From Candidatus Moraniibacteriota bacterium (GTDB lineage: Bacteria > Patescibacteriota > Minisyncoccia > Moranbacterales > UBA9337), in the NCBI GenBank assembly GCA_026985555.1, contig JALSQF010000011.1, positions 4,571-68,570 of the forward strand: 64,000 nt of DNA, written 5' to 3'. Below are positions 11,238-60,114 of this stretch, piece after piece (positions within the stretch are counted from its first letter, which is position 1; every line of letters starts with the position of its first letter). A program made the translations under genes and the position numbers. Under the pieces are notes generated by a model, which worked only from the letters and a program-made list of their open reading frames with translations, made no database searches and had not been told where the DNA came from.

Positions 11238-11247
11238 AAGTGTTTAT

Positions 11248-11276: not shown

Positions 11277-11316
11277 CAAGGGTTTTAAAAGAAAAAGTTT
11301 TTTTAAAATTAATTAA

Positions 11317-11650: not shown

Positions 11651-11673
11651 TTAATTAACTTTAAAATAAATAT

Positions 11674-43087: not shown

Positions 43088-43357
43088 ATGGCATTAACTA
43101 AAAAGCAAAAAGAAATAGTTACTCAAAATGTAAAAAGGCACAACAAAGATACAGGATCTCCAGAATATCAAATTGCTCTTTTTACAGAAAAAATTAAAAA
43201 ACTAACCGATCATTTAAAGAAAAATAAAAAAGATTTTCATTCTCGCAGAGGGCTTTTAAAAATGGTGGCTAAAAGGAAAAAGTTAATGAATTATTTAGAA
43301 AAAACTAATAAGAAAGCTTATAAAGCTTTAATTAAAAAACTAAAATTAAAAGGTTAA
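43088..43357 (+). CDS. rpsO: 30S ribosomal protein S15
   Basis: 89 aa; ...TGSPEYQIALFTEKIKKLTDHLKKNKKDFHSRRGLLKMV typical S15. Confidence 0.93.
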   Translation: MALTKKQKEIVTQNVKRHNKDTGSPEYQIALFTEKIKKLTDHLKKNKKDFHSRRGLLKMVAKRKKLMNYLEKTNKKAYKALIKKLKLKG

Positions 43358-43404
43358 AATTTTTTAATAATTCTTTTTGAATTATTTTTAATAAATAAAA
43401 ATCA

Positions 43405-43911
43405 ATGTCTAATTTTTCTCAATTCAAGGAGCAAAGAGTAGCCGTTTTAGTGGATATTCAAAATCTTTATTATAGCGCTAGAGTTTTATATAATAAAAAA
43501 GTAAATTTTAAAAATATCTTATTGGAAGGAGTAGCTAGGAGAAAATTAATTAGAGCCATAGCTTATGGAATAACTACCTTAGAAGGTTCGGAGGAAAAAT
43601 TTTTAGAAGCGTTAGTTAAACACGGATTTGAGGTAAAAACTAAAGATTTGCAAATATTTCCTGGAGGAGCCAAAAAAGGAGATTGGGATGTGGGTATTGC
43701 AGTAGATGCCATTAAATTATCTAAAAATTTAGATGTGATTGTTTTAATTTCGGGAGATGGTGATTATTTACCGATGGTTACTTATGTGCAAAATACTACT
43801 GGTTGTCGGGTTGAAGTGATGGCTTTTAGCGAATCGGCTAACGGAAAGTTAATAGAGCAGGCAGATAATTTTATTAATCTTTCAGAAAATAGAAAAAAAT
43901 TTTTAATTTAA
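43405..43911 (+). CDS. NYN/LabA-like (PIN-fold) protein
   Basis: 168 aa; RVAVLVDIQNLYYSAR...DWDVGIAVDAI...VIVLISGDGDYLPMV acidic residues of LabA/NYN. Confidence 0.8.
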   Translation: MSNFSQFKEQRVAVLVDIQNLYYSARVLYNKKVNFKNILLEGVARRKLIRAIAYGITTLEGSEEKFLEALVKHGFEVKTKDLQIFPGGAKKGDWDVGIAVDAIKLSKNLDVIVLISGDGDYLPMVTYVQNTTGCRVEVMAFSESANGKLIEQADNFINLSENRKKFLI

Positions 43912-43995
43912 ATATTTAAAAATTGAAAACAAATTATATTTTATTTAAAAATATAAAAAACCGACTATATTTAGATAGTCGGTTTTGTTTTTTAA

Positions 43996-44235
43996 TTAAG
44001 GGCAAGGAGACAATTTTTTTTTCCATTTACCTCCGTTAAAACATCCTTCCCATTCATTTGTTCTAATGATTAAAACAAATGAATAAGGGCGAAGATTAGA
44101 ATTTTCCTCCCTTATTTCTTCATAATTTTCATCATATTTGCTTTCCTCCCAATTTTTGTGGCAAAAACAAATTTTTTTTGGGTTGTAAATACTTAAAAAA
44201 GCGCCACAAATTTCACATCTCCTTTTCTTTTGCAT
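43996..44235 (-). CDS. small Cys-rich (zinc-ribbon-like) hypothetical protein
   Basis: 79 aa; CEICG...CFCH...C...C; lies at the distal end of the minus-strand tRNA cluster. Confidence 0.35.
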   Translation of the reverse strand: MQKKRRCEICGAFLSIYNPKKICFCHKNWEESKYDENYEEIREENSNLRPYSFVLIIRTNEWEGCFNGGKWKKKLSPCP

Positions 44236-44313
44236 AATAGAATAGCCCTCCTTTTTGTAATAAATTAAAAATTAAAAAATGAAAAAGAACTAAAAACAAA
44301 TCTAACTTTCCAG

Positions 44314-44386
44314 TGCATCCAGAGGGATTCGAACCCCCGACCGTCTGGTTAAGAGCCAGCTGCTCTACCAACTGAGCTATGGATGC
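44314..44386 (-). tRNA. tRNA-Lys (anticodon CUU)
   Basis: Cloverleaf GCATCCA-TA-GCTC..GAGC-A-GCTGG-CTCTTAA-CCAGA-CGGTC-GGGGG-TTCGAAT-CCCTC-TGGATGC-A; CCA not encoded. Confidence 0.85.
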
Positions 44387-44402
44387 TTTATAAAATATAT
44401 TG

Positions 44403-44473
44403 TTCCGAGGTAGGGACTCGAACCCCAATTAGCAGAGCCAGAATCTGCTGTCCTACCATTAGACGACCTCGGA
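44403..44473 (-). tRNA. tRNA-Gln (anticodon CUG)
   Basis: TCCGAGG-TC-GTCT..GGAC-A-GCAGA-TTCTGGC-TCTGC-TAAT-TGGGG-TTCGAGT-CCCTA-CCTCGGA-A; 4-nt variable loop; CCA not encoded. Confidence 0.75.
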
Positions 44474-44488
44474 GCAAATTTTTAAAAG

Positions 44489-44571
44489 TGCCGCGGGAGA
44501 GACTCGAACTCTCATGGGACAAGCCCACTAGTTCCTAAGACTAGCGTGTCTACCAATTCCACCACCGCGGC
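44489..44571 (-). tRNA. tRNA-Leu (anticodon UAG), class II with long variable arm
   Basis: GCCGCGG-TG-GTGGAATTGGTAGACAC-G-CTAGT-CTTAGGA-ACTAG-[TGGGCTTGTCCCA]-TGAGAG-TTCGAGT-CTCTC-CCGCGGC-A. Confidence 0.85.
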
Positions 44572-44587
44572 AGTTAACTAGTATAAG

Positions 44588-44661
44588 TAGCAGGGGTGAG
44601 AATTGAACTCACGACCTTGGGCTTATGAGTCCCACGCTCTAACCAACTGAGCTACCCTGCC
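44588..44661 (-). tRNA. tRNA-Met (anticodon CAU; could be elongator Met or lysidine-modified Ile2)
   Basis: GGCAGGG-TA-GCTC-AGTTGGTTA-GAGC-G-TGGGA-CTCATAA-GCCCA-AGGTC-GTGAG-TTCAATT-CTCAC-CCCTGCT-A; G1.U72 wobble; A31.G39 mismatch; CCA not encoded. Confidence 0.75.
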
Positions 44662-44734
44662 TTTCTAAAAATTTTTTTAAAAAATCTAAAAATATTCCAA
44701 CACTTTTGCATTATCCTATATTTTTTAAGAAAAA

Positions 44735-45040
44735 TCAAGAGTTAGATTTGAAGAAAAGTTTAATTCTTTCAATTTCTTTTTTTAAAATATCTTCATTTTT
44801 GTATTCACCATGATGACGAGTAGTTTTTCCGTAAGTATACTTTTTTTGATCTAAATGAATATTGAAGATAAGATTATTTTCAAGAAGAGTTAAGTAAATA
44901 TGAAAACGAGGAAAACCACTTTGGCTTAACGGATAAATAAAACTCATTTGATTATTACTAGTATGATGTTGAAATTGATAACCTAATTGTCTTAATAGAT
45001 TAGTGGGATTTTTTTGAAAATCTTTCAAAATTATTTTCAT
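44735..45040 (-). CDS. hypothetical protein embedded in the tRNA cluster
   Basis: 101-aa ORF between tRNA-Ala and tRNA-Met on the same strand; no motif recognised. Confidence 0.4.
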   Translation of the reverse strand: MKIILKDFQKNPTNLLRQLGYQFQHHTSNNQMSFIYPLSQSGFPRFHIYLTLLENNLIFNIHLDQKKYTYGKTTRHHGEYKNEDILKKEIERIKLFFKSNS

Positions 45041-45087
45041 TTTAGATAGAAATATTATTAATTTATAGAATAGTAACTAATAAAAAG

Positions 45088-45160
45088 TGGACTATGCCGG
45101 ACTTGAACCGGCCACCTCATCCATGCCATGGATGCGCTCTGCCAGATGAGCTAATAGCCC
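45088..45160 (-). tRNA. tRNA-Ala (anticodon GGC)
   Basis: GGGCTAT-TA-GCTC-ATCTGGC-AGAGC-G-CATCC-ATGGCAT-GGATG-AGGTG-GCCGG-TTCAAGT-CCGGC-ATAGTCC-A; G3.U70 identity pair; CCA not encoded. Confidence 0.85.
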
Positions 45161-45270
45161 TTATATATGATTTATATTACTATATCATAGCAAACTTTAC
45201 TCTAGATTTCAAGAAAAATATAGTATATATTAAAAAAGTTACTTTTAGTTTGCAAAAAAGCTAATAGAAA

Positions 45271-45359
45271 GGAGAAGTGCCAGAGTGGTTGAATGGGGCG
45301 CTCTCGAAAAGCGTTGTTCCTATAAGGAACCGGGGGTTCAAATCCCTCCTTCTCCGCCA
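45271..45359 (+). tRNA. tRNA-Ser (anticodon CGA), class II; CCA encoded
   Basis: GGAGAAG-TG-CCAGAGTGGTTGAATGG-GGCGCT-CTCGAAA-AGCGT-[TGTTCCTATAAGGAACC]-GGGGG-TTCAAAT-CCCTC-CTTCTCC-G-CCA. Confidence 0.85.
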
Positions 45360-45432
45360 ATTGAAATTTTATATTGTGAAAATATAAAAATTGTATTTCA
45401 TAATTATTTATTTTTTAAAAAACAAATTTATT

Positions 45433-45484
45433 CTTTCTGGCTATTTAAATATCCATTTAAATGGATATTTAAATAGCCAGAAAG
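45433..45484. repeat. palindromic intergenic element, copy 4 (extended 52-bp perfect palindrome)
   Basis: CTTTCTGGCTATTTAAAT-ATCC-ATTTAAAT-GGAT-ATTTAAATAGCCAGAAAG equals its own reverse complement. Confidence 0.85.
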
Positions 45485-45542
45485 AGTTTGATAGGTTTAT
45501 ATAAATATTGAGAATAATTTTCTAAAATAATTTTAATTTAAA

Positions 45543-46286
45543 ATGGAATTAAAAAATTTAATCAGAGCAAAACTTATTAAAAGATACAAAAGATTTTTAA
45601 TGAAAGTTAAATTTAAAAATCAAACAATTACTGCTTATACTCCTAACACTGGAACAATGAAAACTTTATTGGACGAAGAAAATTTTGTTTATTTAGAAAA
45701 TAGTCAAAACCTTAAAAGAAAATTAAAATATACTACTAAAATTATTGAATTGGTAAAAAAAGAAAAAAATAATCAAAAATTTTTTACAATGATTGATACT
45801 CATTTAGCTAATAGAATTGTTGAAGAGTGGATTAAAAATAAAGAAATTCCAGAATTAAAAAAATATCAAAAAATTGAAAGGGAGGTGAAATATGGCAAAA
45901 ATCAAAAAAGTAGAATTGATATTTTGTTAAGTCATAAAAATAAAAAGAAAACTTTTATTGAAATTAAAAATGCCACTTTGAAATTAGAAAAAAATACGAT
46001 TGCTTTTCCAGATGCAATTACGGAAAGAGGAAAAAAACATTTAGAAGAATTAATTTTAGAAGTTGAGCAAGGAAATCAAGCAATAGTTTTTTTTCTTGTT
46101 TCTCGAAATGATGGAAAGAAATTTAGAGTGGCAAAAGAGATTGATGAAAAATTTTATGAAACTTTTTTAAAAGCCAAGAAAAAAGGAGTGCAATTTTTAG
46201 CTTATCAAATTGATTTTGAGTTAAAAGAAAAAGAAGGGAAATATAATTTTCAATTAACTCGCGGTCCAAAGATTAAAATTATTTAG
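45543..46286 (+). CDS. sfsA: sugar fermentation stimulation protein A homologue (SfsA family, nuclease-fold DNA-binding protein)
   Basis: 247 aa; LIKRYKRFLMKV...AYTPNTGTM...SRIDILL...FIEIKNATL...AFPDAITERGKKHLEEL parallels E. coli SfsA along its length. Confidence 0.8.
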   Translation: MELKNLIRAKLIKRYKRFLMKVKFKNQTITAYTPNTGTMKTLLDEENFVYLENSQNLKRKLKYTTKIIELVKKEKNNQKFFTMIDTHLANRIVEEWIKNKEIPELKKYQKIEREVKYGKNQKSRIDILLSHKNKKKTFIEIKNATLKLEKNTIAFPDAITERGKKHLEELILEVEQGNQAIVFFLVSRNDGKKFRVAKEIDEKFYETFLKAKKKGVQFLAYQIDFELKEKEGKYNFQLTRGPKIKII

Positions 46287-46425: not shown

Positions 46426-49400
46426 ATGAAAATAGATAAAAAAATAACTCAAACTTTTTCTTATGGTGTGATTTATATCTATTCTATTCCACTTGATAGT
46501 CATAAAGGTAGATTGAAGATAGGTAGCACTACCATTAATTTGCAAAATCCGACACAGGCAGAAATGAAAGCCGTAGCAGACAATAGAATAAAACAACAGA
46601 CTAAAACCGCTGATATACCGTATAAATTGGAATATACAGTACTTGCGATTGATGAACAAAATAACTATTTTTCAGATTATGATGTTCATAATGTTTTGAT
46701 TCGTTCCGGATATAAAAGAAAATCGGAGAATGTTAAAAATATTCATTCAGAATGGTTTGAGGTAAGTTTAGATATTGCAAAAAAAGCCATTCAGGCAGTT
46801 AAAGAAGGACGAAAAGCTTTAACAACCGAAGAAAAGATTTCTAAATCTCAAGAAATAGTATTTTCTTTTCGTCCTAACCAACTTGATGCTATAGAAAAAA
46901 CTACTAAAGCTATTAAGAGAAATAAAAAACATTTTTTGTGGAATGCTAAAATGCGTTTCGGTAAAACAGCGGCGGCAATGCAGGTTGCTAAAGAAAATGA
47001 AATGCAAAAAGTGCTAATTGCTACGCATCGTCCTAGCGTTAAAGTTGATTGGTATGATGATTTCAATAAAATTTTAGCCAGTGCTGATTATCAATATGCC
47101 TCTAAGGATAGAGGTGAACATATTAAAACCTTATTAAAAGAAAATAAAAAATTTGTTTACTTTGTTTCGTTGCATGATTTGCGTGGCTCAAAGCGAGTAG
47201 TTGAAGATGAAGCAGCACATTCTCAGGCGGTAGGTTTTGAAAAAAATGAAGAAATTTTTGACACTGAGTGGGATATGTTTATTGTGGATGAAGCACATGA
47301 AGGAACACAAAGTAATTTAGGGAAAACCGTTTTTAGTAAGATAGTAACGAAGTTTACATTGCAACTTTCTGGTACTCCTTTTAATATTTTACACAAATAC
47401 GAAGAGGAAAATGTTTATACCTGGGATTATGTAATGGAGCAAGAAGCAAAATTAAATTGGGAAAAAAATAACCCCGGTGTTCCTAATCCTTATGCTGAAT
47501 TACCAGAATTAAATATTTTTACTTATGATATAGATCAGTTCTCAGCCCATATTGGAAATTTTGGAGGCAAATTTCATAGTGTTATGGATGGGGCATTTAA
47601 ATTTCACGAATTTTTCCGTGTAAAAAAGAATGATCAAGGCGAAGAGATTGCGGAATTTGAACATCAAGAAATGGTGAAAAAATTTTTAGACCTTTTAGTA
47701 AATGATAAGTTAAAAACAAAATTTCCATATGCTACTAAGGAATATCGTAATTACAATAAACATTCCCTTTGGCTTTTACCAAATCGTGTTAAAGTTATTG
47801 AAGCAATGGAAAAATTATTGCAAGAACATCCAGTGTTTGGATCTGGTGCTTTTGGTATTGTAAATATTTCAGGTAATGCTCCAGATTATAGTGAAGATAA
47901 AGATGCTAAGGAAAGAGTAGTTAAGGCAATTAAGGAAAATGAGTACACAATAACTTTAACAGGGCAAAGACTAACAACAGGTGCTTCTATAAAAGAATGG
48001 ACTGCTGTTTTTATGATGTCAGATACTAGTTCTGCGACCACATATCTGCAAACTGCTTTTCGTTGTCAAACACCAGCAAGAATTGATGGGAAGTTAAAAA
48101 CTAAGGGTTATGTTTTTGATTTTGCTCCTGACCGTACTTTAAAACTCATTGCTGAAGCTGTAGAGCTTAATCATAAGTCTGGCTCTATAAATTCATCGGA
48201 ACAAAAAGAAGCAATGCAAAAATTTTTAAATTTCTGTCCAATCTTAGCTGCCGAAGGAGGAAAAATGGTGCCATATGATGTGGGTGGGATGCTTAAACAA
48301 CTTAAAAAAGCTATTATCCAAAGAGTGCAACGAAATGGATTTGATGACCCAAAATTATACAACGACAATTTATTGCAATTGGACGAAATGGATGTTAGCA
48401 AATTCAATGAATTAAAAAAGATTGTTGGTGCTTCCAAATCTACACAGATAAAAGAAATAGAAATCAATAAATTGGGAATGGATGATTTGCAAAAAGCAGA
48501 ATCGGCAAGGAAAAAGAAACAGCAAGAGAGGTCATTAACAGAAGAAGAAAAGGAAGCTCTTAAAAAACTAAGGAAAGCCAGAGAAGAAAAGAAAAAAGCA
48601 ATTAATATTTTGCGAGCAGTGAGTATTAGAATGCCAATGTTGGTTTATGGTGCGGATATTTCTTTTAAAAAAGATATTTCTTTGCAAGATTTTATAGAGT
48701 TAGTTGATGATGAGTCTTGGGTAGAATTTATGCCGGATGGACTTACCAAAGAAAAGTTTAATGATTTTGTGAAATATTATGATGAAGATGTTTTTAAGGG
48801 GGTAGCGAGATCTATCCGTGCTCAAGCCCAGGATTGTGATAATCTCCCACCTACAGAAAGAGTTGAATCACTGGCAGAAATTTTTGCTACTTTTAAAAAT
48901 CCAGATAAGGAAACAGTGCTTACACCGTGGAAGGTAGTTAATATGCACATTACAGGAGTTTTTGGCGGACATAATTTTGTTAGTGGTATAAAAGACAAAA
49001 CAGGAAAGCCAATGTGGCAAAGCGGTGAAGTGGGTGAAAATATTTGGGAAAAAGATGATGTTAAAATTTTAGAAATCAATTCTAAATCGGGGCTTTATCC
49101 ACTTTTATGCGCTTATAATGTTTATACTCGTAAACTTAAAAAAGATAAAAAACTTAAAAAATCAGAAGATAAAGTTTACAAAAAAGTTTGGGATGAGGTT
49201 TTGAAAAATAATATTTATGTTTTGTGTAAAAGTCCGATGGCAAAAAGCATTACTCAAAGAACTTTAGCTGGTTATACAAATGTCAAAACAAATATTATTT
49301 ACATAAAAGATTTAATTGATAAAATGAAACAAAATGATGGCTACAAAGATTATAATTTACCTCAAGAATTATTAACCAAATTTAATTTAGATAAAAATAT

Positions 49401-50436
49401 GAAATTTACAGCAATTGTGGGAAATCCACCGTATCAAGGTGAAAACCATCAACAAATTTATCCATACTTTTATTTGCTTTCAAGAAAACTTGGAGAAAAT
49501 GTTTCTCTTATTTTTCCTACAGGTTGGCAAGAACCGAAAAATGGGAATAACTTAAGGTTACTTAATAAAAAAGAAATTAAAGAAGACCCGCAAATTGTTT
49601 TTATCAACAATAAACAAAATGTTTTTCCTGGTATTCCTGGTGCTGAATGGACTAATATTATTTTATGGAAAAAAAGATATAATAATGGACTAGACGGAAA
49701 ACAAAAAATTTACATAGAAGGGAAAGATGAAAAAATAATAAAACTTCAAACAGAAAAAAATCATGATAATAAACCAAAAGAGATTGTGGAGATGGGAAAA
49801 ATTGTTATGTCGCGAGATGATTTTATATCTATGCAAACTATCACATCAAGTTTAAAACCATATGGATTAAGAACAGATTTTTTTAATGATCCATCAAAGT
49901 ATGGTTTGCCACCAATTAAAGATAAGAAAGAACATAATGATGATATTACTATTTTTGGCTCAAAAGATAGAAATAGGAAGGTCGTGTATGCTGATAAAGA
50001 TTATCCGGTGCCCAAAAAAACCAAAGCATTTGATAAATGCAAGGTTTTTGTGCCTTATGCATGGGGTGGTGGTGATATTAGCGATTCATATTCAGATATT
50101 GTTATAGCTAAACCTTATGAAATATGCACAGAGACTTACCAGGAACAGGGGTGTTATGACGATTTTGCAATGACTCAAAAGCACGCAAAATATATCATGA
50201 CAAAATTTGCTCGCGCATTATTATATTTAAATAAGCATTCTCAACACTCAACTACCGCTTGGGGGGCGGTCCCAATTCAAAACTTTGCAGAAAAATGGTG
50301 GGATAAGAGTATAAAGGAAATTGATGAAGAATTAATGAAAAAATATAAAATACCACAAAATATAAAAGATTTCGTAATGAAAAATATTCAAGAAAAAACA
50401 GAAAAGAATATTATGAATTACAAAAATAATAGATAA
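46426..50436 (+). CDS. single-polypeptide T5orf172/GIY-YIG-like + SF2 DEAH helicase + gamma-class N6-adenine methyltransferase + C-terminal domain (Type ISP-like RM-type enzyme)
   Basis: 1336 aa. aa 13-115 GVIYIYSIPLDSHKGRLKIGSTT...EWFEV (T5orf172-like); Walker A NAKMRFGKT (aa 174-182), DEAH (288-291), SGTP (315-318), motif VI-like QTAFRCQTP; coiled-coil linker; MTase motif I ILEINSKSGLYPL (about aa 881) and motif IV IVGNPPYQG (NPPY at aa 1000-1003); about 330-aa C-terminal tail. Confidence 0.8.
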   Translation: MKIDKKITQTFSYGVIYIYSIPLDSHKGRLKIGSTTINLQNPTQAEMKAVADNRIKQQTKTADIPYKLEYTVLAIDEQNNYFSDYDVHNVLIRSGYKRKSENVKNIHSEWFEVSLDIAKKAIQAVKEGRKALTTEEKISKSQEIVFSFRPNQLDAIEKTTKAIKRNKKHFLWNAKMRFGKTAAAMQVAKENEMQKVLIATHRPSVKVDWYDDFNKILASADYQYASKDRGEHIKTLLKENKKFVYFVSLHDLRGSKRVVEDEAAHSQAVGFEKNEEIFDTEWDMFIVDEAHEGTQSNLGKTVFSKIVTKFTLQLSGTPFNILHKYEEENVYTWDYVMEQEAKLNWEKNNPGVPNPYAELPELNIFTYDIDQFSAHIGNFGGKFHSVMDGAFKFHEFFRVKKNDQGEEIAEFEHQEMVKKFLDLLVNDKLKTKFPYATKEYRNYNKHSLWLLPNRVKVIEAMEKLLQEHPVFGSGAFGIVNISGNAPDYSEDKDAKERVVKAIKENEYTITLTGQRLTTGASIKEWTAVFMMSDTSSATTYLQTAFRCQTPARIDGKLKTKGYVFDFAPDRTLKLIAEAVELNHKSGSINSSEQKEAMQKFLNFCPILAAEGGKMVPYDVGGMLKQLKKAIIQRVQRNGFDDPKLYNDNLLQLDEMDVSKFNELKKIVGASKSTQIKEIEINKLGMDDLQKAESARKKKQQERSLTEEEKEALKKLRKAREEKKKAINILRAVSIRMPMLVYGADISFKKDISLQDFIELVDDESWVEFMPDGLTKEKFNDFVKYYDEDVFKGVARSIRAQAQDCDNLPPTERVESLAEIFATFKNPDKETVLTPWKVVNMHITGVFGGHNFVSGIKDKTGKPMWQSGEVGENIWEKDDVKILEINSKSGLYPLLCAYNVYTRKLKKDKKLKKSEDKVYKKVWDEVLKNNIYVLCKSPMAKSITQRTLAGYTNVKTNIIYIKDLIDKMKQNDGYKDYNLPQELLTKFNLDKNMKFTAIVGNPPYQGENHQQIYPYFYLLSRKLGENVSLIFPTGWQEPKNGNNLRLLNKKEIKEDPQIVFINNKQNVFPGIPGAEWTNIILWKKRYNNGLDGKQKIYIEGKDEKIIKLQTEKNHDNKPKEIVEMGKIVMSRDDFISMQTITSSLKPYGLRTDFFNDPSKYGLPPIKDKKEHNDDITIFGSKDRNRKVVYADKDYPVPKKTKAFDKCKVFVPYAWGGGDISDSYSDIVIAKPYEICTETYQEQGCYDDFAMTQKHAKYIMTKFARALLYLNKHSQHSTTAWGAVPIQNFAEKWWDKSIKEIDEELMKKYKIPQNIKDFVMKNIQEKTEKNIMNYKNNR

Positions 50437-50596
50437 CTATGAATAGACAACTTTACAAAAAATACAATCTCACACAAAGAGAGATTGATTATATAGAATC
50501 AATGGTGAGGGAGATGGAGTAAATTAATTATAATAAAAATAAAAATGGCAAAAAAAAACTAAATTTTTTATTCCTATACTTTTACAAAATAAAGAT

Positions 50597-51330
50597 TTGA
50601 AAAAAATAAAATTAAACGAAGATATTATTCTGAGGCCTATAACAAAAAAAGAACAGAAAATATTTTTTGGTATAGAAGATGTTAAATTTAATTTTGTTGG
50701 TAGAGGAACTTGTATAATAGATAAAATAACAGTTTCAAAAAATAGAGGTTTATATGATTATAAATCATGGTTTCGGCATGAAATGTTGGAAAGTGACGGT
50801 GCTTTTTTTGCATCTAATTATGTTATAGAATGCAAAGACGAAAATATTGAAGATATTTTTTATGATTTAAATATAGCTTTTAATTTATTAAGTGTTACTA
50901 GTACAAAGTGTTTTATATACTTTACAGATACTAAAAATAGTGTTTCTTTTTTACATAGTGATATGATTTATGGTGGTGGTAGAAATTTTGGTTATTTAAA
51001 AATAGGTACTCAGGAATTTCATGATTTACCAATTATTTATCAGAAAATAAAAACTTTAAAAAAAATGAAAAATTAAAATTAAAATTATTCATGTTAGGAT
51101 TACACAGTGCCACAACTGATGAGCTAAAATTTTTATCATTTGTTACAGCGTTAGAAAATATGTATTTACCAAATATAAAAAATGAATTGAATTTTAGATT
51201 TGCATTAAGAATAGCACATGTTTTAGATGGTAAGATAACTAAAAAAAATAAAGAAGAATTATTTAAATTGGCAAAAAAATATATAATGAAAGAAGTAATA
51301 TTGTTCATGGAAACACAAAAAATAATATAA
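50597..51330 (+). pseudogene. hypothetical gene split by a frameshift at an A8 homopolymer (ORFs 50597-51076 and 51091-51330)
   Basis: Adding one A to the run at 51058-51065 (TTA AAA AAA ATG, i.e. A_AAA_AAA) fuses the two ORFs into one open frame of about 245 aa; downstream part has an Rx6H (RFALRIAH) motif. Confidence 0.45.
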
Positions 51331-51442
51331 ATGAAATATATGGAGAAACAGTAAATTTACTGTGGGTTTCTTTACTAGAATGGATAAATCATCCAGAAAA
51401 ATTTACGGAATCTTATTTTCAAAAAATGATATTAAAATAATT

Positions 51443-52018
51443 ATGAAAAAATACCTCTACATAATAACAAACATCTCAATGCCTGGAATTTGCAAGGTTG
51501 GGATTACTAATGATATCGAAAAGCGGTTGAGAGATTTAAATAAAACTGGCTTGCCGACACGATTTCAAGTATATGAAAAATTTGATTTACCAAATGCAGA
51601 AATTTTAGAGCAGATGATTTTGCAACATTTTGCAGAAGATAGAATTAACCGCAAGCGTGAATTTTTAAAAATTCATCCAGAAAGAATTTGTGATTTTGTT
51701 TTTGATAATAAAAATGTAAAAAATGAAAAAGAAAGTCAAGTGAAAAGTAAATTTGTAAAATTGGGTATAGAAAAAGGGGCAATTTTAAATTTTAAAGTAG
51801 GAGATGAAATTTACCATAGTATTACGGCTGAAGTAATTGATCCAAAGTCAATTCGTCCGATTAAATATAAAAATAGACAAGTTTCTCTTTCTGTTGCGGC
51901 TAAAGATATTTTGAAAGAAAAGTTTGATAAAAAATGGAAAGCAGTACAGGGAACAATCTTTTGGACATATAAAGGAAAAACAATTCGTGAATTGATGGAT
52001 AATAATGATATAATCTAA
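51443..52018 (+). CDS. T5orf172 (GIY-YIG-like) domain protein with DUF4357-like C-terminal region
   Basis: KYLYIITNISMPGICKVGITNDIEKRLRDLNKTGLPTRF...EQMILQHFAEDRINRKREFLKI fits the T5orf172/MUG113 pattern; start placed at ATG 51443 (track ORF starts 51362). Confidence 0.65.
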   Translation: MKKYLYIITNISMPGICKVGITNDIEKRLRDLNKTGLPTRFQVYEKFDLPNAEILEQMILQHFAEDRINRKREFLKIHPERICDFVFDNKNVKNEKESQVKSKFVKLGIEKGAILNFKVGDEIYHSITAEVIDPKSIRPIKYKNRQVSLSVAAKDILKEKFDKKWKAVQGTIFWTYKGKTIRELMDNNDII

Positions 52019-52154
52019 ATAATTATGAGTAAATATATTCTATAAAGAATAAATATTGGGGTATCTGGAAAAATCTTTTAAATCCACTCCTTCAAATGAT
52101 AAAGTTAAAAATCAGAATATTAGTAATAATATGTATTTATTTTCTGGATTGCTT

Positions 52155-52237
52155 TATTCTAAATATTAGAATATAAAAAGTTATATTCTAATATCTATTT
52201 GTGTTTTAGAATAAAGAGTGATATAATTCTAATATAG
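52155..52237 (+). promoter_or_regulatory. operator-like repeats upstream of fic
   Basis: Inverted repeat ATTCTAA-ATA-TTAGAAT (52155-52171) plus two direct copies of ATTCTAATAT (52186-52195, 52227-52236), 15-95 nt before the Fic ATG. Confidence 0.35.
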
Positions 52238-52251
52238 TTAATTGTAAAATT

Positions 52252-53349
52252 ATGACAAAACAACCATTTATACCACCAAAATTACCACCAAAAGTTGATT
52301 ATTCAACTTTATTGATGAAAATAGTTGAAGCAAGAGACGTTGTAGCTCGCTTTGATGAGGCTGTCAAAAAGTTGCCAAATCCTGAAATTATTCAAAGATC
52401 AATTAGAACAAAAGAGGCGGTTTTGAGTTCTCGTATTGAAGGGACGCAGGTTACTTTAAACGAAGTATTCTTTCTTGATGCTAAAGATGAGCTTAATGAA
52501 AAAACACAACAACAAATGGATTATCGTGAGGTAATAAATTATAGAAAAGCGATTGCTGTTGGAAAAAATTTATTAAAAGAAAGACCGCTTACCGAGAATA
52601 TTATTAAAGAGCTACATAAAATTTTATTAGATTCTGTAAGAGGTAAAAATAAAAATCCCGGACAGTTTCGCCGTGAGCAAGTTTATATAGGAAAGCCGGG
52701 GGTGAGTATCAATCAGGCATCTTTTATTCCTGTGCCACCGCAAGTAATCAGTGATCTTTTTTCGGATTTAGAAAAATTTTTGCATTTAGAAAAAAATATT
52801 GATCCGATTGTTCAGATTGCCATTGCACATTATCAATTTGAAGCAATACATCCGTTTGCAGATGGGAACGGGAGAGTTGGGCGTTTGATGATACCACTTT
52901 TTCTCTATGAGAAGAAAGTTACAAGTTATCCAAATATTTTTGTTAGTGAATATTTAGAAGAGCATAGGGAGGAATATTATTTACGATTAAAGAATGTGAG
53001 TGAAAAAGGCGAGTGGGTTGAATGGATTGAATTTCTTTTGGGTGCTATTATTGATCAAACAAGAAAAACACGCGGTGTGGTTCATGAGATAGAGAATCTT
53101 TATAGAGAATTGCATGATAATTCACATAAGTTTAACTCAATTTATACCGGTGCATTGATTGATGCTATATTCCAGGCTCCTCATTTTACAGTACGGAAAA
53201 TTAAAAAGATATCCGGAATTAAAAATAATCAGACGCTTTATAATTTGATTGATAAGTTTGTTGATGATGGAATTTTGGTAGACACTCTTCCTGATATTAG
53301 TCGAAATAAAATCTATAAGTTTGAAAAAATAATGCAAATTATCGCATAA
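52252..53349 (+). CDS. fic: Fic-family protein (canonical active-site motif; N-terminal inhibitory SxxxEG helix; C-terminal wHTH-like region)
   Basis: 365 aa; HPFADGNGRVGRLM matches HxFx(D/E)GNGRxxR; upstream SSRIEGTQ matches the (S/T)xxxE(G/N) inhibitory motif. Confidence 0.85.
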   Translation: MTKQPFIPPKLPPKVDYSTLLMKIVEARDVVARFDEAVKKLPNPEIIQRSIRTKEAVLSSRIEGTQVTLNEVFFLDAKDELNEKTQQQMDYREVINYRKAIAVGKNLLKERPLTENIIKELHKILLDSVRGKNKNPGQFRREQVYIGKPGVSINQASFIPVPPQVISDLFSDLEKFLHLEKNIDPIVQIAIAHYQFEAIHPFADGNGRVGRLMIPLFLYEKKVTSYPNIFVSEYLEEHREEYYLRLKNVSEKGEWVEWIEFLLGAIIDQTRKTRGVVHEIENLYRELHDNSHKFNSIYTGALIDAIFQAPHFTVRKIKKISGIKNNQTLYNLIDKFVDDGILVDTLPDISRNKIYKFEKIMQIIA

Positions 53350-53353
53350 GAAT

Positions 53354-54271
53354 ATGAAAAAATCTAATAAAAATATAGATGTTAGTGAAAATTTATTGCG
53401 TCGCACAGGAAAGATTTTGGATATTTTACTGACTGACAGGACAACGGGAAAAAGAATTATCTGGGCAACAGATTCTTATCTATATCTTGGTCCTAAATAT
53501 GCACCTGACAAAAGGATAACACCCTCGTTAATAACAGGTGGATTTAGAAAAGTTATACAACCAAGAGCGGCAAAGAGTTTGGAGGAACAGAGAAGAAGAA
53601 CTAAAGATAAGGCGGAAGTTTTTACACCTTTAAAAATAGTAGAACAAATTAATAATTTAGTAGATAAAAAACCAAATACAAAAAATTGGCAAAAATATGT
53701 ACAAGAATTAAAAATGGAAATTACTTGTGGAGAAGGTCCATTTATTTCCAGTCGTTATAACCCTACTGCACATACAAAAAAAGTCATTGCAATTAAAAAT
53801 AGAGTTGGTTTTTTGGATAAAAAATTACAAGTTGTTTCTAAATTTTGTACAAATAAAAAAGAGTGGATGTTTTGGGCAAAAGAAGCCTTTAAAGCAAGTT
53901 ATGGATTTGATTGGCAGGGTGATAATGTTTTACTTACAAGAGAGAATTTGCTTTATACATTTATTGATTTCTACGAAGACAAGTTTAGTAAGAAACCAAG
54001 TTTGAAAGAAAGGGAAGAGATAGCTAAAATTATTAGTTGGAATATTTTTCAAATGGATGGCTTAAAGTATGTGGTACCTATGAGTTGTAAAAACGAGAAG
54101 AAGATAATAAAAGGTGCAGAAACACTATTTGGAAAAGAAGAAGATAGGATTGAAGAAAAAATATGCGAAGGATGTCTTAAAAATAATTTTAAAAGACATA
54201 ATGGAACTTATGTAAAAATAAAAGATTGGAAAGAAAATAAAATTGTAAGATTTGTAGATCTTATTTTATAA
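53354..54271 (+). CDS. hypothetical protein, likely co-transcribed with fic
   Basis: 305-aa ORF starting 4 nt after fic stop; no family recognised. Confidence 0.5.
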   Translation: MKKSNKNIDVSENLLRRTGKILDILLTDRTTGKRIIWATDSYLYLGPKYAPDKRITPSLITGGFRKVIQPRAAKSLEEQRRRTKDKAEVFTPLKIVEQINNLVDKKPNTKNWQKYVQELKMEITCGEGPFISSRYNPTAHTKKVIAIKNRVGFLDKKLQVVSKFCTNKKEWMFWAKEAFKASYGFDWQGDNVLLTRENLLYTFIDFYEDKFSKKPSLKEREEIAKIISWNIFQMDGLKYVVPMSCKNEKKIIKGAETLFGKEEDRIEEKICEGCLKNNFKRHNGTYVKIKDWKENKIVRFVDLIL

Positions 54272-54298: not shown

Positions 54299-55072
54299 AT
54301 GAAAAACAAAGAAGGAATTATAAAAACTAAATATTTCAATAATATAATAGAAATTTTAGAGCTATTTATGCAACTAGATAGCATAGAAGCGACTTCTAGC
54401 ATTATCAATGAAGGAAAAAAAAGAAAAGAAGTTGTTTTGATAGGCATATTATCTAGTATTGGTTTAGTATTAAAAGAGATAAAAAATTCATATAATTTGA
54501 ATAATTTATCTATTTTTTTATTAATTAGGTATATTTACGAAAGTTGCATTACTTTTCAATATATATTTATTATAGAGCCAAAAAAAACAAGAGAAAAAGT
54601 TGATGCTTTTTTTTGGTATTCAATTATGGAACATAAGAATATACTTGAAGAGGACTATTTTAATGAAAATAGCCAATGGAAAAATGCAATCAATTTTAAA
54701 AAAGGGAGGGATAAAAAAACATGGTCTGGGAAAAGTCTTTATGATATGTATAGAAAAATTGAAAAAAATTTTAAGAAAAAGTCAGGAGCAAAATATCATA
54801 AAATAATTTATAAACACTTGAGTGTGTTTTCTCACCCGACTTTATTTCAGATGGAAATTTTATTTGGTGATAATATAAAAAATAAAAAATTAATTGATAT
54901 AAATATACAATTATCTTGTGCATATATTACAGAGATATTGTATCAATTTTTTGTTGAAAGAAACGAAACAATAAAATCAGTTAAATTAACAAACAAAACA
55001 AAAGAAAAAATCATAAATACCCGTAGTCAAATACTAAAAGATTTAAAAAAATACCAGAACATCCAAGAATAA
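54299..55072 (+). CDS. hypothetical protein
   Basis: 257-aa ORF, no family recognised. Confidence 0.5.
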   Translation: MKNKEGIIKTKYFNNIIEILELFMQLDSIEATSSIINEGKKRKEVVLIGILSSIGLVLKEIKNSYNLNNLSIFLLIRYIYESCITFQYIFIIEPKKTREKVDAFFWYSIMEHKNILEEDYFNENSQWKNAINFKKGRDKKTWSGKSLYDMYRKIEKNFKKKSGAKYHKIIYKHLSVFSHPTLFQMEILFGDNIKNKKLIDINIQLSCAYITEILYQFFVERNETIKSVKLTNKTKEKIINTRSQILKDLKKYQNIQE

Positions 55073-55120
55073 ATTTTATTATATTGAATGATTTTTAAAG
55101 AAATGTTACACTAAAAATAT

Positions 55121-55846
55121 ATGAAGAAATTAATTATAACTATTATTATTTTGTTATTTACAGTGGCGGGTGGGTATTATTATTTTAATTGTCAAAAAGC
55201 AGATAAAGCTATGCAAATTTCTCCACCAAAAGCAAAGGAAAAAACTTTACCAAAACAAAATGTACCACAGGCGAATAAGACTATTCAAAAAAACATTAAA
55301 CAAACGAGCGAACAAGAATCAAATCAAAATGAGTTTCTTGTATATCAAGATGCAGATATTACCTTTAAATATCCTAAAAAAATTATAAGCACTAAACCAC
55401 AGGACAATTTTGAAATAAAAGAAGGAGCGAAATGGAAAGTTATGCGCAAGGGAGATATAATTTATATCCTTGCACCTTTTGAAGATAAAAACAAAATTAG
55501 CGATTACACTTCTTTTATGATTAAGATTTTTAACAATGCATGGGATGCGCAAAAAGAGTTTAATAAAATAGTTCCTTTATATAAAGAAAACCATAATGTT
55601 CCAGTGCCACAGTGGGGTAATAAGATGTATTCAATGACATCAGCAGGATATTATGTCGGTATATTGTCAAAGGTTGGGATTGACATGGGAATTGTAGATG
55701 ATGTATATTTTTTGGTTCCAGGAGGATTAAGTGTTCACGCACAATCTAAAAAACCAAATGAAGAACATTTTGTAGTGTATGCTCGGAGTGATATATATGC
55801 TGATTACATAAAAAATATTTTGCTTCCAAGCATAAAGAATCGGTAA
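55121..55846 (+). CDS. N-terminally anchored or secreted hypothetical protein
   Basis: 241 aa; N-terminal hydrophobic helix (LIITIIILLFTVAGGYYYF) then basic/polar linker and globular domain. Confidence 0.5.
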   Translation: MKKLIITIIILLFTVAGGYYYFNCQKADKAMQISPPKAKEKTLPKQNVPQANKTIQKNIKQTSEQESNQNEFLVYQDADITFKYPKKIISTKPQDNFEIKEGAKWKVMRKGDIIYILAPFEDKNKISDYTSFMIKIFNNAWDAQKEFNKIVPLYKENHNVPVPQWGNKMYSMTSAGYYVGILSKVGIDMGIVDDVYFLVPGGLSVHAQSKKPNEEHFVVYARSDIYADYIKNILLPSIKNR

Positions 55847-60000: not shown

Positions 60001-60114
60001 AAAGATATTTTGGATTTCGCTGATGATATTTTAAGTGGAAAATTTCTTCAAAAGAAGTATGAACTTAATCATCATACAAAAGATTTTTTTGATTTTTGGG
60101 AATTAAGGAATTAG
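57061..60114 (+). CDS. UvrD/PcrA-type SF1 helicase fused to a C-terminal RecB-family PD-(D/E)xK nuclease (AddA/AdnB-like)
   Basis: 1017 aa; UvrD motifs QKEAVDTIEGPVMVVAGPGTGKTQ, ILVDEHQDTN, ...RSKGLEFEQVYI; C-terminal nuclease motifs GIVDKIEK and RVIDYKTGK. Confidence 0.85.
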   Translation: MPSLKKNQKKEIEKNFNQIYQRLNQKQKEAVDTIEGPVMVVAGPGTGKTQILTLRIANILRRAGAGIEPENILALTFTNTGVFAMRERLAEFVGVEQAYEVNIFTFHSFAEYQIKHNPEIFSQFLFARPITEIERIQIVEKILEEKDFQKLKNFSGYFEFYALSILGAINDLKSEAISPEKFEKSLAGIKQRILAEEGENAYLKRKSGNRQKGDLKKAVEDKIKNQIEKQTELLKIYRLYQEILRKRRLYDFSDMILAVVEEAEKNKDYLSLLQEQYQYILVDEHQDTNAAQNKIIELIAEAPVNEGRPNIFTVGDEKQAIYAFQGASLENFLKFQKKYRDVKIINLEDNYRSSQYILNSAHSILAGEKALKASNQKVANLKHKIGVAQFDNYKEELIWLAEDIQKQIKQGVASKNIAIIYRQNKNLSEIKNILDKFGIAYQIFSKENVLDNKEIKKLILFLQAVEDPYNDEVLSKLLFVNFLKLDVFDILKILRLMDYRRGKIKNKSILKIISSPDLLEKIEVRRPIEFMGLATRIEKFKEQSKEKEFLEFFEEFLRESGFLKYIFSLKNSAVILQRIEKIFDEVKKQTLNKKNYTLKDFLNYIEILEKYNISLDLIPNMAEDGVRLMTAHRSKGLEFEQVYITNFVDGIWPSKQQGDSFKLPIKKNAGSIEDEKRLFYVALTRGQHRVTLTFSKFDMEGRERKESRFLSEIDEQYKKKMKLKKESLEDKAQKYFQSRKKQTLSVFDLKYIQEQFLKNHLSVSALNNYMQSPLKYFFRNLLRLPSMPGKSMIFGNIIHKALEDFFIAAKKEKKVLAEKELLKYFYKSLDSAVFLEKYYNEFKKRGEQILKDYYQNYYQDFSIDLETEKKVSSALTLRNGQLLRLYGIVDKIEKLGPNKIRVIDYKTGKTYSEKNKEEKENLNRQLVFYKFLLEKYYAGRGKPEIKVEECVLDFVERNRKTGKYEKKIMHISQTDVRNLKKDILDFADDILSGKFLQKKYELNHHTKDFFDFWELRN

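What the first reader, a model, noticed from the sequence alone, without database searches (positions are those of the whole stretch)
46426..50436. 1336-aa fused T5orf172(GIY-YIG-like)-DEAH helicase-N6A methyltransferase: a Type ISP-like single-polypeptide RM enzyme with an unusual nuclease module
The sequence shows, in N-to-C order, four modules. First is a T5orf172/MUG113-type domain (GVIYIYS..GRLKIGSTT...EWFEV). Second is a complete SF2 helicase core (GKT Walker A, DEAH, SGTP, and QTAFRCQTP as a Q..R motif VI). Third, after a K/E-rich coiled-coil linker, is a gamma-class amino-methyltransferase module: motif I ILEINSKSGLY followed about 115 aa later by IVGNPPYQG. Fourth is a roughly 330-aa C-terminal region with no motif recognised, which could be a target-recognition domain. 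The order nuclease-helicase-MTase-TRD is that of Type ISP restriction-modification enzymes (LlaGI/LlaBIII class). In those enzymes the nuclease is Mrr/PD-(D/E)xK-like, whereas here a GIY-YIG-like T5orf172 domain takes that position. The gene sits directly downstream of a six-tRNA cluster, reads as GC-richer than its surroundings, and is followed by other defence-type genes. That context is consistent with a horizontally acquired defence island.
Basis: partly seen in the sequence, partly recalled or inferred. Interest (0 to 1): 0.8.

Follow-up and report, generated by a model that had tools for sequence, protein, structure and literature searches.

The report
Two-gene helicase restriction enzyme, split methylase
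The 1336-residue nuclease-helicase-methylase gene is real, but it is one half of a very widespread, uncharacterised two-gene restriction-modification system whose small partner gene supplies the cofactor-binding half of the methylase that the big protein has lost.

Summary
The ORF (46426-50436, +, 1336 aa) and all quoted motifs are confirmed. Pfam finds T5orf172 (14-125), ResIII/SNF2 (147-321) and Eco57I (928-1067). AlphaFold (pLDDT 91) gives a complete gamma-class N6-adenine methylase fold plus a C-terminal domain. Residues ~1050-1250 are hypervariable among homologues, as a target-recognition domain would be.

"Single-polypeptide" is wrong. A conserved ~305-aa partner lies beside the big gene in every homologous locus with enough flank, including 75 of 80 genome loci. 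In this window it sits at 53354-54271, displaced by a 2.9-kb insertion carrying a SoFic gene and a stand-alone T5orf172 gene. The partner is the N-terminal, SAM-binding half of a methylase (motifs X, I, II, III; no NPPY). Other genomes fuse it directly to an NPPY/TRD half, or encode the two halves separately.

The big protein's own N-half has lost the canonical SAM-contact residues family-wide; lysine replaces the first motif-I glycine in 108 of 109 representatives. T5orf172-less relatives have an HNH gene alongside.

The family is not detectably related by sequence to LlaGI/LlaBIII. Best reading: an ATP-dependent, Type ISP-like two-component restriction-modification system. It is a new variant of a known kind, and no experimental characterisation was found.

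The parts
46426..50436 (+). Large subunit gene (1336 aa): T5orf172 nuclease, SF2 translocase, degenerate methylase N-half, catalytic NPPY half and TRD
   Evidence: ORF and translation. Pfam domains. Full-length homologues at 57-72% identity across phyla. 2146 cluster representatives with E<=1e-3.
46465..46800 (+). T5orf172 (GIY-YIG superfamily) domain, residues 14-125; putative nuclease
   Evidence: PF10544, 27.4 bits against a cut-off of 20; 30/30 homologues hit it. Y17/Y19, K31-I32-G33, R54, H88, N105 and E109 are invariant in 30 homologues and at least 90% conserved in 52 diverse ones. T5orf172 is an experimentally active nuclease domain in phage ICP1 Gp88/Odn (PMC8263062).
46864..48375 (+). 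SF2 helicase-like ATPase, residues ~147-650: Walker A GKT 179-181, DEAH 288-291, SGTP 315-318, LTGQRLTTG 511-519, QTAFRCQTP 542-550
   Evidence: ResIII 147-319, SWI2_SNF2 and SNF2-rel_dom. All motifs are invariant in 30 homologues. The second RecA-like lobe has no Pfam hit and is inferred from motifs V and VI.
48376..48912 (+). Conserved connector, residues ~651-829, including the K/E-rich segment ~680-730
   Evidence: Identity 0.61-0.80 per 50-aa window. Residues 733-829 are helical in the model. The low-complexity K/E stretch gives only spurious S19 hits. A coupler-like role is inferred, not tested.
48913..49395 (+). Cis N-half of the methylase fold with degenerate SAM motifs (residues 830-990): motif X-like ETVLTPW 829-835, beta1 ILEI 881-884 + NSKSG, beta2 IYVLC 930-934, beta3 956-959
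   Evidence: AF2 model pLDDT 91.3, strand order as in a Rossmann-like methylase. K replaces the first motif I Gly in 108/109 scorable representatives. There is no conserved acid after beta2 and no conserved Asp after beta3. hhalign to the partner aligns only motif X (E 0.028).
49396..50436 (+). Catalytic C-half (beta4 + NPPY 1000-1003) and target-recognition region (hypervariable ~1050-1250, nt 49573-50175)
   Evidence: NPPY is invariant in 52 sequences. PADLOC MTase_II matches 990-1323. Identity profile. 31% identical to the stand-alone phage PTm1 gp277, which begins MKFDIIVGNPPYQ. Foldseek: CamA 9e-16, BrxX/PglX, LlaBIII 4e-10, DrdV, TaqI, MmeI.
53354..54271 (+). Partner gene (305 aa): stand-alone SAM-binding N-half of a gamma-class methylase. 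Motif X AEVFTP 87-92, motif I EITCGEGPF 122-130, motif II YGFDW 183-187, motif III QMDGL 233-237. A Cys/His cluster is present (C245, C271, C274, H282). There is no NPPY.
   Evidence: 65% identical to the gene directly downstream of the Falkowbacteria homologue. PADLOC MTase_II PDLC03390, 5e-93. 7141 database relatives. Adjacent to the big gene in 75/80 genome loci. A lactococcal 230-aa relative hits Pfam N6_Mtase positions 20-105. It is fused to an NPPY half in phage FNU4 and in about 620-660-aa proteins.
50437..53353 (+). Intervening 2.9-kb segment, not part of the system: ORF 50597-51076 (no hits), stand-alone T5orf172/MUG113 gene 51362-52018, and Fic gene 52252-53349, whose stop lies 4 nt before the partner start
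   Evidence: Pfam. PADLOC PDC-S57 1.7e-38 and SoFic 1.4e-109. In the other loci the two system genes are mostly less than 80 nt apart. No flanking repeats were found.

Best explanation
This is a two-component, ATP-dependent restriction-modification system.

The large protein carries, in order:
- a GIY-YIG-type (T5orf172) nuclease;
- an SF2 dsDNA translocase;
- a methylase-fold reader, made of a degenerate N-half plus an NPPY catalytic half;
- a variable target-recognition domain that sets sequence specificity.

The small partner is the SAM-binding N-terminal half of the same kind of methylase. I infer that it is needed for the protective N6-adenine methylation of host sites. On unmethylated foreign sites, the large protein would hydrolyse ATP, translocate, and cut DNA with the T5orf172 domain. 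This is Type ISP-like or Type I-like logic.

Shown here: the domain set, conservation of catalytic residues, the methylase fold, the hypervariable TRD, the obligate gene pairing, the partner's identity as a methylase N-half (through natural fusions and splits), and the exchangeability of the nuclease module.

Inferred: all enzymatic activities, translocation, how cleavage is triggered, and how the partner engages the large protein.
For: - Domains.
- Catalytic-residue conservation.
- Methylase fold, pLDDT 91.3, with closest structures CamA, BrxX/PglX, LlaBIII/LlaGI, DrdV and MmeI.
- TRD-like hypervariability at ~1050-1250.
- Partner adjacency: 5/5 metagenome or genome contexts, 75/80 species genomes, and lactococcal and Lysinibacillus plasmids.
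- Partner is a methylase N-half: motifs; N6_Mtase and MmeI_Mtase hits of the lactococcal relative, which aligns to the partner.
- Natural fusion of a partner-like N-half to an NPPY half in phage FNU4 and in abundant 620-660-aa proteins.
- Natural split in phage PTm1, gp277 + gp279.
- Three-gene version with a free NPPY/TRD subunit, L100.
- Nuclease swap to HNH.
- Location in defence islands and mobile elements (integrases, TraG, CBASS, GmrSD).
Against: - There is no experimental datum for any member. I found no paper describing the family.
- The large protein's methylase fold is predicted complete on its own. The partner is therefore not structurally required to finish the fold, and how it would reach the NPPY site in the fused form is unexplained.
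- The degenerate motif I might still bind SAM.
- The partner model was poor (pLDDT 54). The partner family gives no significant profile hit to Pfam methylase models, to PDB sequences, or to the cis N-half.
- The analogous Bacillus subtilis dnmA-yeeB-yeeC cluster showed no restriction or phage defence in the tests done (PMC9973331).
Confidence: 0.62

Rival explanations
1. The large protein is a self-sufficient single-chain Type ISP-like enzyme whose unusual motif I still binds SAM. The small gene is then an accessory, for example a second hemimethylase-like helper, a regulator or an assembly factor, and not part of the catalytic methylase.
For: AF2 predicts a complete methylase fold in cis with high confidence. 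NPPY is invariant. The degenerate N-half is under strong purifying selection, with identity 0.61-0.68 and many invariant residues, so it is functional in some way.
Against: All three canonical SAM-contact positions are lost family-wide: the motif I Gly, the motif II acid and the motif III Asp. The partner keeps them. The partner co-occurs essentially always. The same partner family is demonstrably the N-half of complete methylases elsewhere and pairs with NPPY-only proteins.
Confidence: 0.2
2. It is not a restriction system. The pair would be a mobile-element or phage-borne methylase-helicase used for self-protection (anti-restriction), epigenetic control, or DNA processing during transfer. 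The T5orf172 domain would then act in recombination or DNA binding rather than restriction.
For: Relatives sit on conjugative or mobilisable plasmids, integrative elements and phage-like contigs. The partner and NPPY halves occur as plain methylases in phages. T5orf172 has been proposed to act in recombination (PMC7824862). B. subtilis DnmA behaves as an orphan methylase.
Against: A hypervariable TRD on an otherwise highly conserved protein is the signature of diversifying specificity in restriction systems. The nuclease catalytic residues and ATPase motifs are invariant. The nuclease module is replaced by HNH rather than simply lost. Neighbours are defence genes.
Confidence: 0.12
3. It is a BREX-like or other non-cleaving, methylation-based exclusion system. 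The methylase-fold reader and the ATPase would block replication of unmodified DNA without classical cutting.
For: BrxX/PglX are among the best structural matches. BREX also uses an Eco57I-type methylase.
Against: No other BREX genes (PglZ, BrxC, BrxL) are in the window or in the homologous loci. A conserved nuclease domain is present and exchangeable.
Confidence: 0.05

Closest known systems
[quoted passage not shown]
   Same: The module order is the same: nuclease, SF2 helicase-like ATPase, connector, gamma-class N6-adenine methylase, TRD. They occur on plasmids and in defence contexts. The methylase/TRD fold is similar (Foldseek 4xqk 4e-10, 5ffj 2e-9).
   Different: The nuclease is T5orf172/GIY-YIG, not Mrr/PD-(D/E)xK. 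A second, obligatory gene encodes a methylase N-half. The cis SAM motifs are degenerate. No sequence similarity is detectable, even with a 52-sequence profile. CamA is a better structural match than LlaBIII.
dnmA(yeeA)-yeeB-yeeC clusters (MmeI-like methylase + DEAD helicase + GIY-YIG/T5orf172 protein; Morgan et al. 2009, PMC2731913; Fernandez et al. 2023, PMC9973331)
   Same: The functional parts list is the same: adenine methylase with TRD, SF2 helicase, T5orf172 nuclease. Both are predicted to be helicase-dependent RM systems and both lie in defence islands.
   Different: There, three separate genes carry a complete MmeI-type methylase. Here the nuclease, helicase and methylase/TRD are fused, the methylase is Eco57I/CamA-like (no MmeI_Mtase hit), and the methylase N-half is duplicated as a separate gene. 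Homology of the helicase and T5orf172 parts to YeeB/YeeC was not tested.
CamA and other Eco57I-family gamma-class adenine methylases
   Same: CamA is the best structural match to residues 730-1336 (7lni_A, E 9e-16, TM 0.45-0.50). It has a methylase domain followed by a DNA-recognition domain and an NPPY motif.
   Different: CamA is a stand-alone orphan methylase with its own SAM site, with no nuclease or ATPase. No sequence-level hit was found.
Type I restriction-modification systems (HsdR/HsdM/HsdS)
   Same: One specificity module is shared between a methylating assembly and an ATP-driven translocating nuclease assembly. The three-gene relative L100 (free NPPY/TRD subunit, N-half subunit, nuclease-helicase subunit) is organised in this spirit.
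   Different: The split falls inside the methylase fold, between beta3 and beta4, not between M and S. The nuclease is GIY-YIG-type. The helicase protein carries a methylase-like pseudo-half.
Split DNA methyltransferases (own knowledge, not checked here: M.AquI and M.EcoHK31I alpha/beta subunits)
   Same: A DNA methylase is encoded as two polypeptides that must associate.
   Different: Those are C5-cytosine methylases split in the variable region. Here an N6-adenine gamma-class enzyme is split between motifs III and IV, and one half is fused to a helicase-nuclease that also has a degenerate copy of the other half.

Membership tests
Type ISP RM enzymes (LlaGI/LlaBIII) | All functions (R, M, S) in one polypeptide, with no partner gene | tested here: not met
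   A conserved partner gene is adjacent in 75/80 genome loci and in all other contexts with enough flank. It is present in the window at 53354-54271.
Type ISP RM enzymes (LlaGI/LlaBIII) | N-terminal Mrr-family PD-(D/E)xK nuclease | tested here: not met
   The N-terminus is T5orf172 (PF10544) in 30/30 homologues. There is no PD-(D/E)xK or Mrr hit.
Type ISP RM enzymes (LlaGI/LlaBIII) | SF2 helicase-like ATPase with intact motifs | tested here: met
   ResIII/SWI2_SNF2 hits. Walker A, DEAH, SGTP, and motifs V and VI are invariant.
Type ISP RM enzymes (LlaGI/LlaBIII) | Coupler domain linking the ATPase to the methylase | tested here: inconclusive
   A conserved segment at ~651-829 exists. No comparison with the LlaGI coupler was possible.
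Type ISP RM enzymes (LlaGI/LlaBIII) | Gamma-class N6-adenine methylase plus C-terminal TRD | tested here: met
   AF2 fold. Foldseek to 4xqk/5ffj. NPPY invariant. Hypervariable 1050-1250. Caveat: the cis SAM motifs are degenerate.
Type ISP RM enzymes (LlaGI/LlaBIII) | Detectable sequence homology to LlaGI/LlaBIII | tested here: not met
   phmmer and a 52-sequence profile against all PDB chains, which include 4xqk and 5ffj, gave no hit at E<=1.
Type ISP RM enzymes (LlaGI/LlaBIII) | ATP-driven translocation and collision-dependent cleavage | not testable with these tools
   This needs biochemistry.
T5orf172 / GIY-YIG nuclease superfamily | Pfam PF10544 match above the gathering score | tested here: met
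   27.4 bits against a cut-off of 20. 30/30 homologues at E<=0.01, best 8e-8.
T5orf172 / GIY-YIG nuclease superfamily | Conserved catalytic Arg and Glu (and Tyr of the GIY element) | tested here: met
   Y17/Y19, R54 and E109 (plus H88 and N105) are invariant or at least 90% conserved. Assignment to catalytic roles is by position in the motif order (PMC8263062), not by structural superposition.
Gamma-class (Eco57I-type) N6-adenine DNA methylases | Motif IV NPPY on a Rossmann-like fold | tested here: met
   NPPY 1000-1003 follows beta4 in the model. Eco57I PF07669, 56 bits.
Gamma-class (Eco57I-type) N6-adenine DNA methylases | Canonical SAM-binding motifs I (GxG), II (acid) and III (Asp) in the same chain | tested here: not met
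   In cis, (D/E)INSK(S/T)G has K for G in 108/109 representatives, and the motif II and III acids are not conserved. The canonical motifs are found in the partner instead.
dnmA-yeeB-yeeC type systems | MmeI-family methylase lacking its nuclease, with separate helicase and T5orf172 genes | tested here: not met
   The large protein gives no MmeI_Mtase hit at E<=1, and its modules are fused.
Type IIG/IIL single-chain RM enzymes (Eco57I, MmeI) | Nuclease + methylase + TRD without an NTPase; cleavage at a fixed distance | tested here: not met
   A 500-residue SF2 ATPase is present. The PADLOC REase_MTase_IIG model matches mainly the C-terminal region; its best stretch is 955-1323.

The most novel reading that the evidence does not exclude
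The NPPY/TRD half-methylase acts as a shared specificity and base-flipping module that can pair with either of two N-halves.
- Paired with the SAM-competent partner, it forms the protective methylase.
- Paired with the SAM-incompetent pseudo-half on the helicase-nuclease chain, it forms a reader that detects unmethylated sites but cannot methylate them.

Modification and restriction would then be physically separated while being forced to share one recognition domain. This would be a previously undescribed way of preventing a restriction complex from accidentally protecting invading DNA, and of tuning the R:M balance through partner dosage.

The architectures seen form a series consistent with this reading: single-chain methylase; split methylase; split methylase plus a separate nuclease-helicase-pseudo-half protein; and the fused form in this window.
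Probability: 0.35. Interest if true: 0.8.

Novelty: new variant of a known kind. Interest (0 to 1): 0.62.

Why it matters
The family is large. It has at least 2146 representatives at 50% clustering, and relatives in at least 594 species-representative genomes. These span Patescibacteria, Bacteroidota, Bacillota, Spirochaetota and others, including dairy Lactococcus and clinical Enterococcus plasmids.

Databases name it only generically ("Eco57I ... domain-containing protein", "restriction endonuclease subunit M"). Its pieces match only generic REBASE-derived PADLOC models (REase_MTase_IIG, MTase_II).

The literature I could search mentions helicase-containing RM enzymes with GIY-YIG nucleases only in passing, as unstudied (PMC2731913, PMC3553950).

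If the two-component reading is right, three things follow:
- Methylome-to-gene assignments for these loci need both genes.
- The system offers a natural example of a methylase split inside its catalytic fold and rewired to a translocating nuclease.

Tried and rejected
1. AlphaFold of the partner with a 26-sequence alignment gave pLDDT 54. It is unusable, so no fold search was run on it.
2. Sequence and profile searches of the large protein, the partner (two alignments) and the single-chain methylase family against all PDB chains gave nothing significant.
3. Profile-profile comparison of the partner with the large protein gave nothing with the close-homologue alignments. With diverse alignments it gave only a weak motif X match (E 0.028). 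A duplication origin of the cis N-half is therefore plausible but unproven.
4. Pfam on partner family members hit N6_Mtase only for the short lactococcal form.
5. NCBIfam has no model for either protein.
6. I looked for signs of how the 2.9-kb segment between the two genes was inserted. There are no flanking repeats. Promoter-like sites are no more frequent than in shuffles, and no convincing terminator separates the genes.
7. GC content as evidence of horizontal transfer is rejected: the gene lies about 1 sd above the ORF mean and equals gyrA.
8. The 324-aa gene downstream of distant relative P0325 is not a partner homologue. A partner-like ORF lies 2.8 kb further on.
9. Literature searches for a description of this architecture, or of lactococcal plasmid homologues, found none.
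10. A relationship of the stand-alone T5orf172 gene (51362-52018) to the N-terminal domain is rejected: no significant similarity.

Full report
**Observation.** Pfam finds T5orf172 at 14-125 (27.4 bits, cut-off 20), ResIII at 147-319, SWI2_SNF2 at 152-321, and Eco57I at 928-1067. All 30 close homologues tested hit the same three families. NCBIfam has no model for the protein. The PADLOC RM models match the C-terminal third only: MTase_II at 990-1323 and REase_MTase_IIG at 955-1323.

**Genomic context.** The context is chromosomal. In order it reads gyrA, S15, an NYN protein, six tRNA genes (44313-45359), sfsA, and then the gene. The tRNA cluster is therefore near but not adjacent. The gene's GC is 0.317. 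That is higher than its two immediate neighbours (0.23) but equal to gyrA, and only about 1 sd above the ORF mean. GC content says little here.

**The family.**
- The protein database holds at least 8000 relatives. The best 120 are all full-length and 57-72% identical, although they come from Woesebacteria, Falkowbacteria, Pacebacteria, Saprospiraceae and Parabacteroides.
- At 50% clustering there are 2146 representatives with E<=1e-3, and 639 with E<=1e-30. The architecture holds down to about 35% identity.
- A scan of one genome per species found at least 594 genomes with a relative, across many phyla.
- 88 plasmids carry one, mainly Enterococcus and Lactococcus.
- This distribution, rather than GC, is the evidence for horizontal spread.

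**Methylase fold and TRD.**
- AlphaFold on residues 730-1336 with a 52-sequence alignment gave pLDDT 91.3 and pTM 0.85.
- The model has a motif X helix (835-846), beta1 881-884, beta2 930-934, beta3 956-959, and beta4 996-999 followed by NPPY. A further alpha/beta core and a beta-rich C-terminal domain follow.
- Foldseek against the PDB ranks CamA first (E 9e-16, TM 0.45-0.50). BrxX/PglX, the Type ISP enzymes LlaBIII and LlaGI, DrdV, TaqI, MmeI and a Type I M subunit come next.
- Among 30 close homologues, mean pairwise identity per 50-residue window is 0.6-0.87 up to residue 1000. It falls to 0.39, 0.17 and 0.24 over 1051-1200, then recovers.
- A hypervariable block in an otherwise highly conserved protein is what a target-recognition domain under diversifying selection looks like.

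**The missed partner gene.**
- In five independent homologous contexts, a ~306-aa gene with no Pfam hit follows the large gene after 2-10 nt.
- The window has this gene at 53354-54271. It is 65% identical to the Falkowbacteria copy.
- It has 7141 database relatives, often on the same contigs as the large gene. NCBI names some of them "restriction endonuclease subunit M".
- tblastn over 80 species genomes found a partner homologue on the same strand next to the large gene in 75. The gap is usually under 80 nt. The other five contigs lack flank on the relevant side.
- The partner lies downstream in the window's clade and upstream in most others, including the lactococcal and Lysinibacillus plasmids.
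- In the window the pair is split by 2.9 kb. That segment carries an ORF with no hits, a stand-alone T5orf172/MUG113 gene (PADLOC PDC-S57, 1.7e-38) and a SoFic homologue (1.4e-109).
- The Fic stop is 4 nt from the partner start and everything is on one strand, so co-expression remains plausible. No flanking repeats or convincing terminators were found.

**What the partner is.**
- Its conserved blocks read as gamma-class methylase motifs: X (AEVFTP), I (LEITCGEAPF), II (YGYEW) and III (QMDGL). There is no NPPY.
- The short lactococcal version has fully canonical motifs (GEVFTP, LEPAAGDGNF, YGIEF). It hits Pfam N6_Mtase positions 20-105 above threshold, and MmeI_Mtase below its threshold, and it aligns to the window partner with E 3e-8.
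- Fusobacterium phage FNU4 gp28 is a partner-like sequence that runs straight into KFDVVIGNPPYQ and a C-half homologous to the large protein's C-terminus. The full 648-aa form, including the IIWA..Y and AEVFTP blocks, is in the databases.
- Such 620-660-aa single-chain proteins are abundant in Macrococcus, Enterococcus, Streptococcus mitis and others.
- Tenacibaculum phage PTm1 encodes the two halves as separate genes. gp277 starts MKFDIIVGNPPYQ and is 31% identical to residues ~992-1336. gp279 is 42% identical to the partner.
- Stand-alone ~355-aa NPPY halves are also common.
- The partner is therefore the SAM-binding N-half of a methylase whose catalytic/TRD half is homologous to the large protein's C-terminus.

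**The puzzle.**
- The large protein already has an N-half in cis, and AlphaFold packs it normally against the NPPY half.
- That cis N-half has lost the canonical SAM contacts throughout the family. Motif I is (D/E)INSK(S/T)G, with lysine for the first glycine in 108 of 109 scorable representatives.
- There is no conserved acid after beta2 and no conserved Asp after beta3.
- The region is nevertheless strongly conserved. Its motif X (DKETVLTPW) is the only stretch that aligns with the partner's (DKAEVFTPsW), and only weakly.
- At least five representatives of 1007-1069 aa end just before the NPPY position.
- One of these, on the phage-like contig L100, has three separate genes. They are an NPPY/TRD subunit (373 aa..FDFAMGNPPYQ), a partner (403 aa) and the nuclease-helicase-pseudo-half protein.
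- The NPPY/TRD half is thus a module found free, fused to the partner-type N-half, or fused to the pseudo-half.

**Nuclease and ATPase.**
- Y17/Y19, KIG 31-33, R54, H88, N105 and E109 are invariant in close homologues and at least 90% conserved in the diverse set. This matches the GIY-YIG catalytic pattern.
- A T5orf172 domain is a proven nuclease in phage ICP1 Gp88/Odn (PMC8263062).
- Relatives that lack the domain exist. One of them (L015) has the partner upstream and an HNH gene directly downstream. This argues that the position is a nuclease slot.
- The Walker A, DEAH and SGTP motifs, and motifs V and VI, are invariant.

**Mechanism.** The best-supported reading is a two-component, ATP-dependent RM system. 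The TRD sets specificity. Methylation requires the partner (inferred). Unmethylated sites trigger ATP-driven translocation and T5orf172 cleavage (inferred by analogy with Type ISP and Type I enzymes). The more novel reading is that the NPPY/TRD half alternates between the SAM-competent partner, acting as writer, and the SAM-incompetent cis pseudo-half, acting as reader for restriction. That reading fits the series of architectures but is untested. In the fused form it is unclear how the partner would displace the cis half.

**Comparison with known systems.**
- The system works like a Type ISP enzyme but fails three membership tests: single polypeptide, Mrr nuclease, and detectable homology.
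- It shares its parts list with the dnmA-yeeB-yeeC clusters (PMC2731913, PMC9973331). It differs in fusion state, in methylase subfamily, and in the duplicated N-half.
- Morgan et al. 2009 and Sisakova et al. 2013 mention large helicase-containing RM polypeptides and GIY-YIG variants as unstudied.
- I found no paper on this family or on the split methylase.

**Verdict.** This is a new variant of a known kind. It is widespread and uncharacterised, with an unexplained and testable twist in the bipartite methylase.

Noticed in passing
window 52252-53349 (+): A 365-aa Fic/DOC protein (Fic_N + Fic) matches the PADLOC SoFic single-gene defence model nearly end to end (1.4e-109; NCBIfam SoFic 1.6e-62, below its cut-off). 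It lies inside the insertion that separates the two genes of the RM system, and its stop is 4 nt before the partner's start.
   Followed up: partly
window 51362-52018 (+): A stand-alone T5orf172/MUG113 protein (218 aa from a GTG start; 179 aa as called in the sister assembly) matches PADLOC candidate system PDC-S57 (1.7e-38), and PD-Lambda-1 weakly. It shows no significant similarity to the T5orf172 domain of the large protein.
   Followed up: partly
window 43088-46286 compared with L002 952-4595: In the Falkowbacteria genome (L002) the homologous system also lies beside the S15 and NYN genes, with two integrase genes in between. In the window the same S15-NYN pair is followed by six tRNA genes and sfsA. 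This may be a shared integration hotspot in small-genome bacteria.
   Followed up: no
L001 (NCBI GCA_054022635.1, contig JBPMRF010000012.1), end of contig = window ~52130: An assembly carrying the identical large protein ends its contig just after the stand-alone T5orf172 gene, inside the island. The best database match to the window's partner is 98% identical (not 100%), on a different 19.6-kb contig. This could reflect strain heterogeneity or an assembly break within the insertion.
   Followed up: no
L002 12990-15469; L003 6232-7998; L004 13225-15389; L006 13537-14286: GmrSD_N (DUF262) and/or PDDEXK_1 genes recur directly beside the two-gene system in several unrelated genomes. They are absent from the window. 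They may be an optional third component or a co-travelling Type IV system.
   Followed up: no
window 54299-55846 (+): Directly after the partner come a 257-aa protein with a sub-threshold DUF5677 match and a 241-aa protein with a very weak PARP-catalytic-domain match (E 0.0078, below cut-off). No defence-library hits were found. Whether they belong to the island is unknown.
   Followed up: no
window 57061-60114 (+): A 1017-aa UvrD-helicase/PD-(D/E)xK fusion of AddA/RecB-like type. It hits many PADLOC GajB models because these are generic UvrD models, and no GajA-like gene is nearby. It is probably housekeeping repair rather than Gabija.
   Followed up: partly
L013 (Tenacibaculum phage PTm1) 3079-5511: In this jumbo phage the two methylase halves (gp277 and gp279) flank a small helix-turn-helix regulator gene. 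This resembles the C-protein control units of RM systems, yet no nuclease or helicase is present.
   Followed up: no
L100 (ENA ERZ27279223, k141_207065) 1-12002: The three-gene version of the system sits on a contig full of small genes, with Phage_YunG-like and metallophosphatase genes. The nuclease-helicase form can therefore be phage-borne.
   Followed up: partly
L010 3518-3946 (Lactococcus lactis pCV56A): The lactococcal large protein is 1452 aa. It has about 140 extra N-terminal residues with a weak DUF4145 match (E 0.0014) ahead of the region aligning with the window's N-terminus, and no T5orf172 hit at E<=0.01.
   Followed up: no
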